Origin: the human T2T-CHM13v2.0 reference genome, Homo sapiens
Assembly: GCF_009914755.1 (NCBI RefSeq)
Contig: NC_060938.1
Reading direction: 5' to 3' (one strand)
DNA: 64,000 bases
The notes below the pieces were generated by a model. It saw only the letters and a program-made list of their open reading frames with translations. It was not told where the DNA came from and ran no database searches. Within the stretch, counting starts at the first letter, position 1. The number at the start of each line of letters is the position of its first letter. Shown here in pieces: positions 15,331 through 46,541 of this stretch. Made by a program: the position numbers and the translations under genes.

Positions 15331-15625
15331 GGGCCGGGCACGGTGGCTCACGCCTATAATCCCAGCACTTTGGGAGGCCTAGGTGGGTGGATCACCCGAG
15401 TTCAGGAGTTCAAGACCAGCCTGGCCAACATGGTGAAACCTCCTCTCTACCAGAAATAGAAAAAATTAGCCGGGCGTGGTGTCACATGAATGTAATCCCA
15501 GCTACTTGGGAGGCTAAGGCAGGAGAATCACTTGAACCTGGGAGGTTGGAGGTTGCAGTGAGCTGAGACAGCGTCATTGCACTCCAGCCTGGGGGACAGA
15601 GCAAGACCCTGTCTCAAAAAAAAAA
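15331..15625 (+). mobile_element. Alu (AluS)
   Basis: Full dimer. Confidence 0.95.
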
Positions 15626-39463: not shown

Positions 39464-39650
39464 AAGATGTGTTTTATTATTTGCACTTGTGTAATGGCAA
39501 AGAAAATAGGTTACTAAGCTTGCTCTTGTTAGAATATCCTTTGTAGTCACTCATTTGATGATGTTGAGTAAGAATCTTTCCTCTGTTAATACGTCTTTGT
39601 TTAAAAGAAAATAAGTTACCTTTGTAGTCTTTGTACATTTTTCTTTGCAG

Positions 39651-39820
39651 AAAGTTTCCCCTCTGCTGGATAATAATTAATTTTATAAAAGTGTTTAATC
39701 CAGTACTGATTATATTCCCTTGTGAGCTGGATGAAAAGAAACTTCTGAATGTTTGTAACCACAGATTGATGATTTGGTTACAAAGACTCTCTGTTGGTGA
39801 TGGTTTCTGAGAACTGGAAG
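39651..39820 (+). other. Candidate internal 5'-UTR exon (170 nt)
   Basis: Strong acceptor (ctttgtacatttttctttgcag|) and strong donor (AAG|GTAAGC) in non-repetitive sequence; contains stops and only short ATG-initiated ORFs. Confidence 0.65.
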
Positions 39821-40111
39821 GTAAGCTTGTTCCTTGGGTGAGTCATCATGTTGTCTTGCAGTCGGTCATGTGTTTTCTTAGCAACTGCTGTTGATTTCAG
39901 GTTTGAGCAGGGTGAGCATGTTTTGAAATGATCCAACAGATTCTTTTAGGTTATATATGGCTGCTAAATCTTATACACTTACTGTTACTATTATGTGTCT
40001 TACAAGGAGTGAAAGATTGAATTCTTTTTTTATCTCTACCTTCCAAATCATTTCTCTTCTAATTTGTTTTTCAGGGGTAGTGAGGACTGGGAGTGGGGGT
40101 AAAAAAGGAGA

Positions 40112-40842
40112 AAAATAAATGAATCTGGGATATCATGAGTCTGCCTGTTTATGCCCCTGGACTAGAGCAGAACCAAAAGGACCTCCATGTGCTGATAGGG
40201 TTAAATATGATTTCCTGGGGTGTTGATCTTGAGTAATACTCCGTGTGCATACATTCTATAGGAACAAGTGAATTTTAGAAATGTCTGTGGTATAGTGTAG
40301 TGGTTAAAAGCTTGGGTTCTGAAATCAGTCTGACCCCTGGTTCAAATTCTAGCTTTGCCATATACTAGAGGTGTTATTTTGGGCAAATTACTTAACCTCT
40401 CTGAGTAGAGTTTCCTCATCTGTAAAAGTGAAACTAAAATCCCACGTACTTATATTACTGAGATAATACAGGTAACAGAAAGCATAGTACCTATAGAACA
40501 CATGGTAACAAATGCTAGTTATTACATTCAGTTCAAGGGTGCAGTACACAAGGGGCTAGGTATCAGGTGTTTAGGGGACAGTCAGAAATGAATCATATAT
40601 GAGCCCTAATTCTTCAGGAACTGGGGGAGATGGCCTTGTAAACAAGTCACTGTAGTATTATCTAGAATGGAAGAAGTGCCAACTGAAGTACAAGCAAGGT
40701 GCTGTGGGTGCATAAAGCAAGTGATGCCAACTTTGGGGAAGTTAGGGCTAATTTTGTAAAGCATTTGCCATTTGAGCTGAGGGTGTATTGCCAGGCCTAG
40801 AATGATGAGTAGGGCTTTTATGGGTGGAGAGTGGAGGAGAGT
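40112..40842 (+). repeat. Inverted repeat, left arm (731 bp)
   Basis: Exact reverse complement of 45572-46302 except at 40259/46155; contains a MIR (about 40288-40520) and L2-like sequence. Confidence 0.97.
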
Positions 40843-40971
40843 GATTCTCCTGCCTTAGCCTCCCAAGTAGCTGGAGGCTACTCCCAAGTGGAGGAGAGTA
40901 GATTTTGTATTTTTAGTAGAGATGGGGTTTCACCATGTTGAGCAGGCTGGTCTTGAACTCCTGACCTCAGG
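40843..40971 (-). other. Rearrangement junction made of antisense Alu fragments and short templated inserts
   Basis: Every piece maps to nearby sequence; see findings. Confidence 0.85.
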
Positions 40972-41100
40972 AGAATCACGTGAACCCAGGAGGTGGAAGT
41001 TGCAGTGAGCCGAGATCACGCCACTGCACTCCAGCCTGGGCAACAAGAGCAAAACTCTGTACCCACCCCCCCCCCCAAAAAAAAAGAAAAGAAAAAAGAA
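40968..41100 (+). mobile_element. Alu right-arm fragment (broken Alu)
   Basis: caggagaatcacgtgaacccagg...gagcaaaactctgt followed by a C/A tail. Confidence 0.92.
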
Positions 41101-41732
41101 ATTTATCTGGCCTTTAAAAAAAAGAACACCAGGCTGGGCAACCAAGCAAGACCTTGTTTTTACAAATCAAAAACAAAAAACCTGTTTCCATCTACTTCTG
41201 AGATTCCTTTTTCTTTAGCATATCTTCTAGCTCATTAAAAAAGGATTTATGGATCTTCTTGGAAGATAACACTTCCAACAACAAAAATGTTCCTTCTGAC
41301 CCTTTATCTCCAATGACTTGGATTACAAAATTCTTCAATTTTCTTTTCATGGAATTTCAGACTATAGTTTTGAGATTTCTAAGAAATATTTTTTTCCTTA
41401 TCTCAAATCCTTCCCTGTAGAAATATCCCTGATATGTCCTCAGCCCCCAAAATACATATAATATGTTCTCAACCAACAAGAAACACCACTTAAGTTGTTT
41501 CCTCTCCGCTGGTGAACAATTAGAACACTGCTTTAAAAATGTCTTATGCATTCCACAACATTTTCCTGAGTAGAAACAAAACTCGAAACACCAAAGGAAC
41601 TTGAGATGTCAGACTACTAAAACAAAAGAAAATCTCTGTGGTATTCTTTGGGTGAACTCTTTCAATTTACTTAAAAAGCTGGCCAACTAAGAGAGGTACT
41701 AAGATTTGCATCTGTTTTAAAACACTTATTTT

Positions 41733-41850
41733 GGCCAGGCATAGTTGCTCACACCTGTAATCCCACCACTCTGGAAGGCAAAGGTGGGAAAATCGCTTGA
41801 GCCCAGGAGTTCAAGACCAGCCTCAGCAACACAGCTAGACCCCATCTCTA
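41733..41850 (+). mobile_element. Alu monomer (FLAM-like)
   Basis: Left monomer. Confidence 0.87.
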
Positions 41851-42045
41851 TTCTTTTTTTTAAAAAGCTTATCTCAGTATTTCTATATTCCTTTGGACAA
41901 CCTACAGTGCAAAAAAAGTGAAATATCAGTGACACCTACTTTGTTATAGCTTAAAAGTGAGAACAGGTAAATTCTCTAACATACATGATCAAAATTGTAA
42001 GTTCTGTATTTGAAAATAATGATAAAACAGCAATAAGAATCACTG

Positions 42046-42325
42046 GCTGGGCGTGGTAGCTCATGTTGAAATCCCAGCACTTGGAGGCCAAGGCAGGAGA
42101 ATCACTCGAGCCCAGGAATTCAAGACCAACCTAGGCAACATAGTGAGATCCCGTCTCTACAAAAAATTTAAAAATTAGCCAGGTGTGGTGGCACACAACT
42201 GTAGTTCCAGCTCCTCAGGAGACTGAGATGGGAGAATTGCTTGAGCCCAGAAGATGGAGATTGTGCCACTACACTTCAGCCTTGGCAATAGAGCGAGACC
42301 CTCTCTCCAACAAAAAAAGAAAAAA
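42046..42325 (+). mobile_element. Alu (AluJ-like)
   Basis: Dimer. Confidence 0.92.
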
Positions 42326-42329
42326 TTGT

Positions 42330-42540
42330 TAATATTTATTTAGTACTCAATTGGTGCCAGACACTTTACATGCACCATCTCTTTGATCCTATGTTATAAG
42401 CCTATAACACAGAAACCATCTACCTCATTTAAGGAAACAGAGAGGTTAAATAACTTGTCCAAACCATACAGCAAGTTACTGGCAAGACTGGCTTGAACAC
42501 AAGTCTGTTGGGCTCCAAAGCCCATGTCCTTAAACAGTAC
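42330..42540 (-). mobile_element. MIR
   Basis: cagagaggttaaataacttgtccaa and ctccaaagcccatgtccttaa. Confidence 0.75.
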
Positions 42541-42679
42541 CATGAGAGAACTCTTAATGGACAAGATATATCCAGTCTACTCATTTACCCCATGATTCTG
42601 TACAGAAACTTAGCACAGCACATTTATATGAGCATTCAACATATGAAGTAGTTAACAGATTAATATAGTTACCAAACTA

Positions 42680-43422
<743 letters not shown>

Positions 43423-43629
43423 AGCTTTTTGCCCACTGTTGCAGTTAACTGGCAAACTTGTGTAATAAATTAACTAACAGAACTGGTTTAGCAACAAATG
43501 AGATGCACAAGGTCTTTAAATTATAACCCTAGGTATGTTGGTGATTTGAAAGGTGACCTAACAGCATTTAAAGTAAGTTATATTTTATATTTATGGGGCT
43601 TTCAAAACCACAGTCAAAAATAAGAACCC

Positions 43630-43840
43630 AAGCCTGAGTAACATGGCAAAACCCCATCTGTACAGAAAACACAAAAATTAGCCAGGCGTGGTGGTGCACA
43701 CCTGTAGTCCCAGCTGCTAAGGAAGCTGATGTGAGAGGATTGTTTCAGCTCAGGAGGCAGAAGGTACAGTGAGCCGAGATCATGCCACTGCACTCGAGCC
43801 TGGACAGCAGAGTGAGACCCTGCCTTAAAAAAAAAAAAAA
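43630..43840 (+). mobile_element. 5'-truncated Alu
   Basis: TSD aagaaccca. Confidence 0.9.
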
Positions 43841-44695
43841 GGAAGAACCCATATTGATGAAATCTTAGTAATAAACCCTGATATCAAATACCTAGGTGAA
43901 AAGGAAAAAGGTCAAATTCTAGCTACTTTGCCTAATTATTCCCAAGGTCCCAGGTGTCAGAAACATTTAAATAAGATAAACATAAAATTGTCCATAGCAA
44001 TTATCTCTAGGAAGAGAGACTGCAAGAATGGAAAATGAAAGTAATATGGGGAAGGGCTTTTGCCTATGTGTGCATGTGTGCGTGTGTGTGTATGTGTGTG
44101 TGCTGGGGTTTTTGTAATAACAAAAATTCCTTAAAAGGCATTCAAAGTCTGATCAGACTTAATTTTTATCTGCATCCATGAGCTTGGCATAAGGATTACA
44201 CATTTCATTATCTAATAAAGGGGACACCATTAAGGAAAAGAGCAACATTCTCTCTGCCCCTTTGGCCTCTCCAATTGAACTAAAACAAGACTTATTAAGT
44301 TTTTACCCACTCCAAAACAAATGTTTCCATTTCATCAGAAGCAAGAGAGAAAAATCTTAAAGGACATTAACCTTCAAGCAGCTCCGAAGGGAAAGGAATA
44401 TTAGAACTTGAGAAATAAAATGGAGAATGAAACTCCCTTGACACTCTTCAGGTAACAAGGAGAACCACACAGTTAAAGAGCTATTCCCTCCTCATAGTGA
44501 AACCCTGAGGTGGAAACTGATGAAAAGTGTCCCAGAGAGCAGCCTGCTCGCTGCCTCTGGTACTCACTCATTTATCCATTCTTCTGAGCTTAAAGAGAAA
44601 AGATAAAAATGAGAAGTGCTTTAAAATTAAAGTTGATGTTTAAATATCACGTCTCTTCTGAGCCCCTACTTTTTCATCTTAAAAATACTATTTCC

Positions 44696-45011
44696 AGCCA
44701 GGCATGGTGGCTCATGTCTGTAATCCCAGCACTTTGGGAGGCCGAGGTGGATCTCCTGAAGTCAGGAGTTTGAGACCAGCCTGGTCAACATGGTGAAACC
44801 CCATCTCTACTAAAAATACAAAAATTAGCCGGGCGTGGTGGCGGGCACCTGTAATCCCAGCTACTCGGGAGGCTGAGGCAGGAGAATCGCTTGAAACGGA
44901 GGTGGTGGGGGAAGGGGGCAGAGGTTGCAGTGAGCTGAGATCGCGCCACTGCACTTGAGCCTGGGCAACAAGAGCGAAACTTTGTCTCAAAAAAAAAAAA
45001 AAAAAAAAAAA
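44696..45011 (+). mobile_element. Alu (AluS)
   Basis: Dimer with a small G-rich insert and A-tail. Confidence 0.95.
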
Positions 45012-45571
45012 CTGCTCCCAATAAATAATTTGCAAAGGTGCTTAGCATAAAACCTGAGACACAGTGGGTACACAATAAAATGTTAGCTTCCTTCTTTCAG
45101 AACTGAATTTCCAACTGCCGGATAGATCTCGCACTAATCTTTGAGTTCACAAGACCCATTAGCCCACCCCATTGCTGGAATATCCAATTTATCCCATACC
45201 TTCTCCTCCTGTATTTTCTCTCTCTCAAGTAATAGCATGAACATTGTCTTTGGCACCTAGTTTCGAATTGTCTGTCTTCTATCTCCTTTTAATCCCCTCT
45301 GACTCTGTTCTCCAAATGTCTTCATCACTCACCTGAATTTCTGAAACATCCTTGTAATTGGACTCCTGCCTCTCTAATACATCTTTCAAAACATTATTGC
45401 GAAACACAGCTCACACCAAACACCTGCTTTGGTTCCCCATTGGCCATGAGAATATAGTCTGAACACTTGTGTGTGAAAAACCCTCCAAAATATAACCACA
45501 AATCATCTATCCAGCCTTCTCTCCCACCACACCCTGCCATTAACCCTGTGCTTTTCTTCAGCCCACAATCT

Positions 45572-46302
45572 ACTCTCCTCCACTCTCCACCCATAAAAGC
45601 CCTACTCATCATTCTAGGCCTGGCAATACACCCTCAGCTCAAATGGCAAATGCTTTACAAAATTAGCCCTAACTTCCCCAAAGTTGGCATCACTTGCTTT
45701 ATGCACCCACAGCACCTTGCTTGTACTTCAGTTGGCACTTCTTCCATTCTAGATAATACTACAGTGACTTGTTTACAAGGCCATCTCCCCCAGTTCCTGA
45801 AGAATTAGGGCTCATATATGATTCATTTCTGACTGTCCCCTAAACACCTGATACCTAGCCCCTTGTGTACTGCACCCTTGAACTGAATGTAATAACTAGC
45901 ATTTGTTACCATGTGTTCTATAGGTACTATGCTTTCTGTTACCTGTATTATCTCAGTAATATAAGTACGTGGGATTTTAGTTTCACTTTTACAGATGAGG
46001 AAACTCTACTCAGAGAGGTTAAGTAATTTGCCCAAAATAACACCTCTAGTATATGGCAAAGCTAGAATTTGAACCAGGGGTCAGACTGATTTCAGAACCC
46101 AAGCTTTTAACCACTACACTATACCACAGACATTTCTAAAATTCACTTGTTCCTTTAGAATGTATGCACACGGAGTATTACTCAAGATCAACACCCCAGG
46201 AAATCATATTTAACCCTATCAGCACATGGAGGTCCTTTTGGTTCTGCTCTAGTCCAGGGGCATAAACAGGCAGACTCATGATATCCCAGATTCATTTATT
46301 TT
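45572..46302 (-). repeat. Inverted repeat, right arm (731 bp)
   Basis: Reverse complement of 40112-40842. Confidence 0.97.
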
Positions 46303-46541
46303 CCAGCTGTTTTTTTCTCATCTACTGTCATTTTACTTTTTTAAATTTAAATTTAAATTTTTAATTTTACTTTTTTGTCTTTAACCAGTTAGAATGCTAA
46401 GATTTGATGGTTAAATAAGACCAAGTATCAAATATTTAGTACGAACTCTCCATTTATCAATGCGGTTGCACAGAAATGGATGGTTCTTTGGAGGCAGAGT
46501 TAAAGAGTAATACAAACTCAAGAAGGACAGAAAGGAACTAA

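What the first reader, a model, noticed from the sequence alone, without database searches (positions are those of the whole stretch)
40841..40979. Left junction is a readable record of serial template switches (FoSTeS/MMBIR- or Pol theta-like)
Seen, in order after the arm end ...ggagagt: (1) antisense Alu gtgattctcctgccttagcctcccaagtagctgg (40841-40874); (2) ggaggcta (40873-40880), an inverted copy of tagcctcc (40856-40863); (3) ctcccaagt (40881-40889), a direct copy of 40860-40868; (4) agtggaggagagtagatt (40887-40904), the reverse complement of 45567-45584, which includes 5 bases beyond the point where the left arm stops; (5) antisense Alu linker and left arm to ...gacctcagg (40971); (6) a strand flip via shared CAGG (40968-40971) into a sense Alu right arm. 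Most joints share 2-4 bp of microhomology (gt, gg, agt, att, cagg). Established knowledge: short templated inserts joined by microhomology characterise replication-based template switching and Pol theta-mediated end joining.
Basis: partly seen in the sequence, partly recalled or inferred. Interest (0 to 1): 0.78.

Follow-up and report, generated by a model that had tools for sequence, protein, structure and literature searches.

The report
Multi-switch breakpoint of a recent inverted duplication
A breakpoint in a SYNE2 intron is stitched together from short copies of nearby sequence, the known scar of a polymerase hopping between templates; it is a clear but ordinary example of complex rearrangement.

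Summary
All six fragments are exact at the stated coordinates. The clean arm pair is 40112-40842 and 46302-45572: 731 nt with 1 mismatch, present only twice in the genome.

The 12-nt filler at 40875-40886 is fully covered by two local templates. Only 4-49 of 20,000 random fillers do as well. The 18-nt piece is a second copy of the arm end plus 5 further source bases.

The two antisense Alu pieces are collinear in one Alu, with about 35 nt replaced by a 28-nt patch. Serial microhomology-joined template switching is therefore well supported for the core.

- **The "private variants" are not private.** The 34-mer recurs at 15498-15531, and a 65-mer of fragment 5 recurs on chr1.
- **The CAGG flip may predate the event.** It exists once more, on chr19, in an old Alu with no duplicated arm.
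- **The event may be an inversion.** Strand composition and Alu orientation suggest the spacer and right arm are inverted relative to SYNE2. That would make it an inversion with a duplicated breakpoint rather than a simple insertion.

No outgroup allele could be reached. This is a known kind of event with no sign of function.

The parts
40112..40842 (+). Left arm of the inverted pair (731 nt). GC skew +0.194, the same sign as the rest of the gene.
   Evidence: 730 of 731 complementary to 46302-45572; only these two copies in the genome; skew.
45572..46302 (-). Right arm of the inverted pair. Its inner flank 45567-45571 is also copied into the junction patch.
   Evidence: GC skew -0.244; 1 of 97 arm-size controls is as low.
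40101..40111 (+). Fuzzy 7-of-11 similarity to the source flank 46313-46303. Possible homeology at the outer or second junction. Contains AGGAGA.
40841..40874 (-). Fragment 1: antisense Alu piece A (reference Alu 199->165). Shares GT (possibly AGT) with the arm end.
   Evidence: The exact 34-mer also occurs at 15498-15531.
40873..40880 (+). Fragment 2: 8-nt inverted copy of 40856-40863, snap-back type with a 9-nt loop. 6 nt are new and 2 nt (GG) are shared.
   Evidence: Filler simulation. Hairpin -7.5 kcal/mol, not exceptional (18 of 200 shuffles fold as well).
40881..40889 (+). Fragment 3: 9-nt direct copy of 40860-40868. No microhomology with fragment 2; shares AGT with fragment 4.
40887..40904 (+). 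Fragment 4: second copy of the arm end (13 nt) plus 5 further bases of the source. It is the reverse complement of 45567-45584.
40902..40971 (-). Fragment 5: antisense Alu piece B (reference Alu 129->62), collinear with piece A. About 35 nt of Alu between them are replaced by 40875-40902.
   Evidence: No other copy with at most 3 mismatches in the window.
40968..41060 (+). Fragment 6: sense Alu right arm (reference 187-279), entered through the shared CAGG. It overlaps piece A by 12 nt in inverted orientation.
41061..41101 (+). End of the sense Alu: a run of 11 C (41066-41076), then an A-rich tail (41077-41101).
   Evidence: read directly.
40843..45571 (.). Spacer between the arms (4,729 nt). 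It carries the patch, the Alu and five further sense Alus. Strand skews are opposite to the rest of the gene.

Best explanation
The left junction is the scar of one recent complex rearrangement. A growing DNA end changed template at least six times, and most landings used 2-4 nt of microhomology.

Shown:
- The junction is built from an arm end; 34 nt of antisense Alu; a 6-nt snap-back copy; a 9-nt re-copy; an 18-nt re-copy of the arm end that runs 5 nt further along the source; then 70 nt of the same antisense Alu, about 35 nt further on.
- After that comes a flip onto the opposite strand at CAGG.

Inferred:
- The early switches were short and abortive (6-34 nt). They shuttled between two sites about 4.7-4.9 kb apart, the arm end and one Alu, before a processive tract was established.
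- This is the behaviour expected of break-induced or fork-restart synthesis (MMBIR/FoSTeS). Pol-theta-like stuttering at the start is possible.
- The event is young: 1 difference in 731 nt gives a point estimate of 0.7-1.4 Myr and an upper bound of 3.8-7.6 Myr for the two rates tried, if the arms have not been homogenised.
- The Alu is old, about 10-13% from another copy. So existing Alu sequence was reused, and this was not a new retrotransposition.

- The CAGG flip is a true inversion breakpoint. From there the strand copied back about 5.4 kb through the spacer and the arm. The result is an inversion with a duplicated breakpoint, in which the left arm is native and pieces A and B are forward copies of an ancestral antisense Alu whose remainder was lost.
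- Otherwise, an inverted copy of the right arm was inserted about 4.7 kb upstream, together with a local partial inversion of a sense Alu.
For: - Exactness of all pieces and collinearity of A and B in one Alu.
- The filler is explained by two local templates, with 4-49 of 20,000 random fillers doing as well.
- Five of 6 joints have at least 2 nt of microhomology, P = 4.9e-4.
- The arm is two-copy in the genome, 730 of 731 identical.
- No extant Alu has both A and B exactly. One other locus carries both variant motifs and it differs. No window Alu matches B within 3 mismatches. The nearest spacer Alu differs from A at 3 of 34. The Alu template was therefore local and was consumed or is still in place.
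- The 12-nt overlap of A and fragment 6 is 12 of 12 identical. At the old chr19 look-alike the same 12 nt are 9 of 12, which favours a recent flip here.
- 5'-inverted Alu insertions are rare: 1 of 5,936 germline Alus in PMC12016303 (passages read).
- Spacer size and microhomology fit published inverted duplications: spacers 766-70,466 bp, median 3,428; microhomology 2-8 bp; insertions at 5 of 18 junctions (PMC3907307, passages read).

For the inversion reading:
- With Alus masked, spacer GC skew is -0.139 (0 of 33 control windows as low) and TA skew is -0.068 (2 of 33 as low).
- Five of 5 spacer Alus are sense, against 68 sense and 93 antisense outside. Five sense in a row occurs in 3 of 157 consecutive sets.
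- Right-arm GC skew is -0.244 (1 of 97 controls as low). Left-arm GC skew is +0.194 (11 of 97 as high).
Against: - No unrearranged allele was available. The order, number and timing of the switches are inferred from one haplotype.
- The joint between fragments 2 and 3 has no microhomology.
- The filler test criteria were set after seeing the data.
- The same CAGG antisense-to-sense Alu junction exists at chr19 without any arm. The flip could therefore be an older, Alu-intrinsic feature.
- The 12-of-12 overlap is a small sample.
- Arm identity could reflect gene conversion rather than youth.
- The skew evidence rests on a few kb that probably contain few independent repeat units. One of 33 control windows also has both skews negative. 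Near-identical arms could also have flipped the spacer after the event.
- Two coincidences are used by no joint in my path: AGCTGG+A at 40869-40875 and 46308-46302, and AGGAGAA at 40106 and 40969.
Confidence: 0.62

Rival explanations
1. The Alu was already 5'-inverted before the rearrangement. Antisense 222->58 was joined to sense 211->polyA by L1 twin priming or by snap-back of the cDNA at insertion. Only the arm joint, the 28-nt patch and the loss of about 35 nt of Alu belong to the recent event. The inverted Alu may even have been the fragile site that started it.
For: - The structure has the twin-priming form: a sense 3' part with an A-tail, an inverted upstream part and a 12-nt overlap. 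The median overlap in L1 is 12 bp (PMC12016303).
- The identical junction occurs at chr19:11444702 with arms 83% alike (90 of 109), so that one is old, and it has no non-Alu duplication.
- The arm could simply have landed at or inside the antisense part.
Against: - 5'-inverted germline Alus are very rare (1 of 5,936).
- Only 2 loci in the genome carry this junction cleanly, with 4 pattern matches in all.
- The 12-nt overlap is 12 of 12 identical, including a decayed CpG, in an Alu about 10-13% diverged from another copy. The chr19 case has 9 of 12.
- No target-site duplication can be shown. The left flank is replaced, and only AAAAAAG at 40101-40107 and 41092-41098 recurs, which is low complexity.
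Confidence: 0.15
2. This was non-replicative repair of two double-strand breaks. A two-break inversion or insertion was joined by polymerase-theta-mediated or synthesis-dependent microhomology end joining. The short pieces are Pol theta templated inserts made in cis (snap-back) and in trans, and the arm duplication came from fill-in of a long staggered break.
For: - Microhomologies are 2-4 nt.
- The short inserts (6, 9, 18 and 34 nt) are copied from both sides of the joint in both orientations.
- Pol theta is described as switching between templated extension in cis and in trans (PMC4912351, search listing only).
- Very short templated inverted duplications of about 5-34 bp arise by foldback at breaks (PMC11724301, search listing only).
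Against: - A simple staggered-break inversion predicts the rest of the Alu (pieces A and B) to the right of the right arm. The sequence there is not Alu.
- A 731-nt duplicated arm, or a 5.4-kb inverted tract, is far longer than typical Pol theta synthesis (recalled knowledge).
- Fragment 4 needs a template containing the arm end together with its native continuation.
Confidence: 0.15
3. There were two or more events separated in time. First the arm, running to 45567, was joined directly to Alu piece B at ATT. Later a 57-nt insertion (40843-40899) arrived, flanked by a 13-nt duplication (AGTGGAGGAGAGT).
For: The 13-nt direct repeat 40830-40842 / 40887-40899 frames a 44-nt insert, which looks like a target duplication.
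Against: - The insert begins with exactly the Alu segment that lies about 35 nt upstream of piece B in a normal Alu, in the same orientation. That would be a large coincidence for an independent event.
- It has no A/T tail, so it is not a retrotransposition.
- The arms show 1 difference in 731 nt, leaving little time for a second event.
Confidence: 0.05
4. Chance resemblance or an assembly artefact.
For: The single 8-nt and 9-nt repeats are individually weak. The hairpins are not exceptional (18, 9 and 5 of 200 shuffles fold as well).
Against: - The 18-mer and the 731-nt arm are exact.
- Joint filler P is 2e-4 to 2.5e-3.
- An inverted copy 4.7 kb away with a structured joint is not the form of a read chimera (inference).
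Confidence: 0.02

Closest known systems
Complex breakpoint junctions of replicative rearrangements (FoSTeS / MMBIR; iterative template switches as in DUP-TRP/INV-DUP and clustered CNVs)
   Same: Several joints in cis, 2-4 nt microhomology, short templated inserts from nearby sequence in both orientations, a copy-number gain in inverted orientation, and short tracts before a long one. Papers seen in search listings only: PMC11293582, PMC6258378 and PMC4352052.
   Different: This is a fixed or segregating germline variant in a reference genome, not a patient CNV. It is small (731-nt gain). No pre-existing inverted low-copy repeat is seen to mediate it.
Fold-back inverted duplications with a disomic spacer (Hermetz et al. 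2014, PMC3907307)
   Same: Inverted copy separated from its source by a few-kb spacer: 4,729 nt here, against a published range of 766-70,466 and median of 3,428. Inverted microhomology of 2-8 bp. Insertions at some junctions, attributed to slippage during synthesis (passages read).
   Different: Those are megabase terminal duplications with terminal deletions and a dicentric intermediate. This one is interstitial and 731 nt long.
Inversions with flanking duplication or deletion (dupINV / dupINVdel classes of complex structural variants)
   Same: Inverted arms flank a segment whose strand composition suggests it is inverted. There is likely loss of sequence (the rest of the Alu) at the other breakpoint.
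   Different: The class names are recalled and come from no call. Inversion of the spacer is inferred from composition only.
Polymerase theta templated insertions / synthesis-dependent MMEJ
   Same: Snap-back and trans-templated inserts of 6-34 nt joined by microhomology (PMC4912351 and PMC5728401, search listings only).
   Different: The junction also contains a 731-nt or longer tract, which needs a processive polymerase.
Short-range template switches in great-ape genomes (Walker et al. 2021, PMC7954356)
   Same: Fragment 2 is a nearby inverted copy that creates a hairpin, as in that model (abstract read).
   Different: That model has one excursion of two switches. Here there are at least six switches and kb-scale jumps.
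L1 twin priming (5'-inverted insertions)
   Same: Sense 3' part with an A-tail, an inverted upstream part and a 12-nt overlap.
   Different: The rate for Alu is 0.02%. No target-site duplication can be shown. The overlap shows no divergence although the Alu is old.

Membership tests
FoSTeS/MMBIR-type complex rearrangement junction | Two or more breakpoint joints in cis with microhomology | tested here: met
   Six joints in 40841-40971. Five have 2-4 nt of microhomology and one has none. P = 4.9e-4 under a random-joint model.
FoSTeS/MMBIR-type complex rearrangement junction | Inserted pieces are templated from nearby sequence, in direct and inverted orientation | tested here: met
   The 8-nt inverted, 9-nt direct and 18-nt inverted pieces (the last from 4.7 kb away) are all exact. 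Filler simulation gave 4-49 of 20,000.
FoSTeS/MMBIR-type complex rearrangement junction | Copy-number gain of a templated segment | tested here: met
   731-nt arm present twice in the genome, 730 of 731 identical.
FoSTeS/MMBIR-type complex rearrangement junction | All joints arose in one event, shown by comparison with the unrearranged allele | not testable with these tools
   No primate or other human assembly is held. The genome search covers only this assembly.
FoSTeS/MMBIR-type complex rearrangement junction | Excess point mutations near the joints from error-prone synthesis | tested here: inconclusive
   One mismatch in the 731-nt arm, about 580 nt from the inner joint. The 4 mismatches in 40101-40111 may be flank rather than arm.
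Polymerase theta-mediated end joining | Short templated inserts from the flanks, snap-back and in trans, joined by microhomology | tested here: met
   Pieces of 6, 9, 18 and 34 nt.
Polymerase theta-mediated end joining | The whole novel sequence lies within the short synthesis range of Pol theta | tested here: not met
   The arm is 731 nt. The range of Pol theta synthesis is recalled knowledge.
L1 twin priming (5'-inverted Alu) | Sense 3' part with an A-tail, plus an inverted upstream part with a small overlap or gap | tested here: met
   Sense reference 187-279 with an A-rich tail at 41077-41101. Antisense reference 199->62. 12-nt overlap.
L1 twin priming (5'-inverted Alu) | Target-site duplication flanking the whole insertion, and an endonuclease site | tested here: inconclusive
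   The left flank of the Alu is now the arm. Only AAAAAAG recurs, at 40101-40107 and 41092-41098, and it is low complexity.
L1 twin priming (5'-inverted Alu) | Inversion as old as the insertion, so the two copies of the overlap have diverged like the rest of the element | tested here: not met
   12 of 12 identical in an Alu 87-90% identical to another copy. The chr19 comparator has 9 of 12. Small sample.
Inversion with duplicated breakpoint (dupINV-like) | The segment between the inverted arms is inverted relative to the ancestral order | tested here: inconclusive
   Skews and Alu orientation are reversed in the spacer and right arm: 0 of 33 and 2 of 33 controls as low; 5 of 5 Alus sense; 1 of 97 arm-size controls as low. 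No outgroup.

The most novel reading that the evidence does not exclude
The structure is a human-lineage, possibly still polymorphic, inversion of about 5.4 kb with a duplicated 731-nt breakpoint inside SYNE2. Its near-identical inverted arms could now flip the 4.7-kb spacer back and forth by homologous recombination. That spacer carries the RefSeq enhancer marks at 43337-43386 and 43507-43556. The junction preserves the full path of the polymerase, including abortive shuttling between two sites about 4.7-4.9 kb apart.
Probability: 0.3. Interest if true: 0.4.

Novelty: new member of a known kind. Interest (0 to 1): 0.3.

Why it matters
It is an unusually legible germline example of iterative template switching. 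The tract lengths (34, 6, 9, 18 and 70 nt, then at least 731 nt) and the microhomologies can be read directly from a finished genome. If dated and polarised with ape and human pangenome haplotypes, it would be a clean teaching case and a data point for how such synthesis starts.

It has no evident functional consequence. It lies in an intron, about 300 nt downstream of an alternative SYNE2 exon (39628-39820). The mechanism class is well described in the literature.

The practical lesson for the scan is that "private" Alu variants cannot identify a source element within one genome.

Tried and rejected
- **Source Alu in the window:** fragment 5 has no match with at most 3 mismatches. Fragment 1 has 18 matches, including an exact one at 15498-15531, but that Alu diverges right after the 34-mer and so is not the template.
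- **Source Alu in the genome:** the exact chr1:204809673 match to a 65-mer of fragment 5 sits in a different context, does not carry fragment 1 beside it, and matches fragment 6 at only 80%. The only other locus with both variant motifs (chr17:9642627) is not identical. An external donor Alu is rejected.
- **Other loci with the flip:** the chr16 locus is a small tandem duplication in a normal sense Alu, and the chr17:18849721 locus is a sense-sense internal deletion. Neither is an inversion.
- **Old repeats spanning the arm or flank boundaries,** to polarise the event: none found. Only the two arms match. The right flank holds only a short multi-copy stretch, which looks to me like an Alu tail.
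- **Is the left flank Alu?** No.
- **Hairpin stability as a driver:** z-scores of -1.4 to -2.3, not exceptional.
- **Simple staggered-break inversion:** rejected, because pieces A and B are on the wrong side (and reasoning).
- **Insertion into a 5'-truncated Alu with a 7-nt AGGAGAA target duplication:** considered, because AGGAGAA flanks the 863-nt block. Set aside, because it needs an external Alu donor that does not exist.
- **Literature:** a search for SYNE2 plus "inverted duplication" returned 1 paper, on neuroblastoma optical mapping (listing only). I found no description of this locus in that one search.
- **Larger control set for the skew test:** 100 kb was fetched instead.
Full report
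**What is there.** The window holds an inverted pair of arms. The repeat finder reports 40101-40842 against 45572-46313 (742 nt). Base by base, the clean homology is 40112-40842 against 46302-45572: 731 nt with one mismatch (40259 T, 46155 A). The outermost 11 nt agree at only 7 of 11. In the whole assembly the arm occurs only at these two places. The other 38 listed matches cover an approximately 100-nt interspersed-repeat segment inside the arm at 72-88% identity. The arms are separated by 4,729 nt.

**The finding itself.** All six fragments are exact at the stated coordinates. After the arm end ...GGAGAGT (40842) come, in order:
- 34 nt of antisense Alu (40841-40874);
- GGAGGCTA (40873-40880), the reverse complement of 40856-40863;
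- CTCCCAAGT (40881-40889), a direct copy of 40860-40868;
- AGTGGAGGAGAGTAGATT (40887-40904), the reverse complement of 45567-45584. It repeats the last 13 nt of the arm and adds the next 5 nt of the other arm's inner flank;
- 70 nt of antisense Alu, up to 40971;
- sense Alu from the shared CAGG (40968-40971) through an A-rich tail (41077-41101).

I mapped these pieces on a full-length Alu of the window (46856->46560). The two antisense pieces are reference 199->165 and 129->62, and the sense piece is 187-279. So the antisense pieces are collinear in one Alu, with about 35 nt replaced by the 28-nt patch. Piece A overlaps the sense piece by 12 nt in inverted orientation, 12 of 12 complementary.

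**Is it more than chance?**
- The 18-mer and the arm are beyond chance.
- For the 12-nt filler (40875-40886), I asked how often a random 12-mer in the same context is fully tiled by at most two exact local matches of at least 8 nt, counting shared flanking bases. With +-60-nt templates this happened in 4-9 of 20,000 trials. With +-100 nt it happened in 12-17, and with +-150 nt in 24-49. The criteria were chosen after seeing the data.
- Five of the six joints share at least 2 nt. Under a random-joint model, where P(at least 2 nt) = 0.156, that has P = 4.9e-4.
- The joint between fragments 2 and 3 has no shared base. A 6-nt inverted match (AGTAGC / GCTACT) could bridge it, but that is too short to count.

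**Age.** One difference in 731 nt gives 0.7-1.4 Myr for per-site rates of 1e-9 and 0.5e-9 per year. The Poisson intervals reach up to 3.8-7.6 Myr for the two rates. Gene conversion between the arms would make this an underestimate. The Alu pieces are 87-90% identical to another copy, so old Alu sequence was reused.

- The 34-mer of fragment 1 recurs exactly at 15498-15531, in an Alu that then diverges, and on chr1.
- A 65-mer of fragment 5 recurs exactly once on chr1. About 60 listed copies have 1 mismatch, and there are 6,222 matches with at most 3 mismatches.
- No other Alu in the genome carries both pieces exactly. One other locus (chr17:9642627) has both variant motifs, and it differs elsewhere.
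- No Alu of the window matches fragment 5 within 3 mismatches.
- The nearest spacer Alu differs from fragment 1 at 3 of 34 positions.

For an event this young, the template must therefore have been an Alu at this very site. Either it is still in place or it was consumed by the event.

**The CAGG flip.** Its form (a sense 3' part with an A-tail, an inverted upstream part, a 12-nt overlap) is that of L1 twin priming. In L1 the median overlap is 12 bp, but for germline Alus only 1 of 5,936 insertions is 5'-inverted (PMC12016303, passages read).

A genome-wide pattern search found 4 matches. Two are clean, this locus and chr19:11444702. The two with 2 mismatches are a tandem duplication and a sense-sense deletion, not inversions.

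At chr19 an antisense Alu running from its T-tail to the same position flips at the same CAGG into the same sense position. Its two arms are 90 of 109 identical, the 12 overlap bases agree at 9 of 12, and there is no duplicated non-Alu arm. The flip can therefore arise on its own and can be old.

Here the overlap shows no divergence, although it includes a decayed CpG. Together with the rarity of inverted Alus, this makes me put about 15% on a pre-existing inverted Alu.

**Overall architecture.** No old repeat spans any boundary, so repeats cannot say which arm is original. Strand composition gives a hint. SYNE2 is on the + strand, and the rest of the gene shows T>A and G>C on that strand. With Alus masked, 33 control windows of 4,472 nt taken from 158 kb give:
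- TA skew +0.062 (sd 0.083);
- GC skew +0.060 (sd 0.088).

The spacer has TA skew -0.068 (2 of 33 controls as low) and GC skew -0.139 (0 of 33 as low). None of the 33 is as low on both, and 1 of 33 has both negative.

Three further observations point the same way:
- All 5 spacer Alus of at least 100 nt are sense, against 68 sense and 93 antisense outside. Five sense in a row occurs in 3 of 157 consecutive sets.
- The right arm has GC skew -0.244 (1 of 97 arm-size controls as low).
- The left arm has GC skew +0.194 (11 of 97 as high).

This reads as if the spacer and right arm are inverted and the left arm is native. It is not proof. A few repeats may dominate the signal, and near-identical arms could have flipped the spacer later.

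**Most likely path under the inversion reading (inferred).**
1. A rightward-growing strand copies the native arm to ...GGAGAGT.
2. It jumps about 4.9 kb ahead to an antisense Alu (shared GT or AGT) and copies 34 nt.
3. It snaps back for 6 nt.
4. It re-copies 9 nt.
5. It returns to the arm end (shared AGT) and copies 18 nt, this time 5 nt further.
6. It jumps again to the same Alu, about 35 nt further on (shared ATT), and copies 70 nt.
7. It flips at CAGG onto the opposite strand and runs back through the Alu tail, the spacer and the arm, about 5.4 kb.
8. It leaves at 46302 for the downstream flank. There, 7 of 11 bases resemble what it would have copied next.

The rest of the Alu and any sequence up to 46303 is lost.

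Under the insertion reading the same pieces are read as inverted copies. The ancestral Alu is then sense, and its positions 1-57 are lost.

Both readings need serial template switching. A simple staggered two-break inversion fails, because pieces A and B would then lie to the right of the right arm, where the sequence is not Alu.

**Mechanism class.** Short abortive tracts followed by a long tract, microhomology at the joints, and a gain in inverted orientation together fit replication-based switching (MMBIR/FoSTeS). The few-kb spacer and the junction insertions match published fold-back inverted duplications. There, spacers run 766-70,466 bp with a median of 3,428, microhomology is 2-8 bp, and insertions are attributed to slippage (PMC3907307, passages read). 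The 6-34-nt pieces alone also fit Pol theta or synthesis-dependent end joining (PMC4912351, PMC5728401 and PMC11724301, search listings only). Fragment 2 fits short-range template switching (PMC7954356, abstract read). The sequence cannot separate these enzymes.

**Unexplained.**
- Piece A ends AGCTGG+A (40869-40875). The source flank just outside the arm is also AGCTGG+A, on the minus strand (46308-46302).
- AGGAGAA occurs at 40106-40112 and at 40969-40975, so it flanks the whole 863-nt block. The chance that a 7-mer lies in the local template set is 2.5%.
- No joint of the final product uses either match. They may mark further abortive landings.

**Verdict.** It is a clear new example of a known kind of rearrangement scar, with no sign of function. 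One search for SYNE2 plus "inverted duplication" returned a single paper on neuroblastoma optical mapping (listing only). The decisive step is comparison with ape and other human haplotypes, which these tools could not do.

Noticed in passing
L014 1330-1670 (chr19:11444477-11444817 of the same assembly): An Alu palindrome. An antisense Alu runs from its T-tail down to the same position, then flips at the same CAGG into sense Alu and a polyA tail. The two arms are 90 of 109 identical, so it is old. It is the only other clean instance of this junction among the 4 pattern matches in the genome.
   Followed up: partly
window 41100-45571 and 45572-46302: With Alus masked, strand skews are opposite to the rest of SYNE2: GC -0.139 (0 of 33 controls as low) and TA -0.068 (2 of 33 as low). 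All 5 spacer Alus are sense. Right-arm GC skew is -0.244. This suggests the segment is inverted relative to the gene.
   Followed up: partly
window 40869-40875 and 46302-46308: AGCTGG+A ends Alu piece A, and on the minus strand it also sits exactly outside the arm boundary of the source. It is a 7-nt match at two breakpoints that no final joint uses.
   Followed up: partly
window 40106-40112 and 40969-40975: AGGAGAA directly precedes or enters the left arm and recurs at the re-entry into the sense Alu, so the 863-nt rearranged block is flanked by a 7-nt direct repeat. The chance of a 7-mer being in the local template set is 2.5%.
   Followed up: partly
window 41066-41076: A run of 11 C lies between the end of the Alu body and its A-rich tail. 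This is unusual for an Alu 3' end.
   Followed up: no
window 40336-40440 (arm positions about 236-340) and its mirror in the right arm: A multi-copy interspersed-repeat segment, which looks MIR-like to me, lies inside the arm. It matches many loci at 72-88% identity.
   Followed up: no
L026 1440-1600 (chr17:18849660-18849820): An Alu with an internal sense-sense deletion joins the left-monomer GGTCAGGAG to the right-monomer CAGGAGAAT. This shows that the CAGGAG motif recurs as a joint within Alus.
   Followed up: no
window 39628-39820: An annotated alternative SYNE2 exon and a RefSeq enhancer mark (39723-39782) lie about 300 nt upstream of the left arm. Two more enhancer marks (43337-43386 and 43507-43556) lie inside the spacer.
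   Followed up: no
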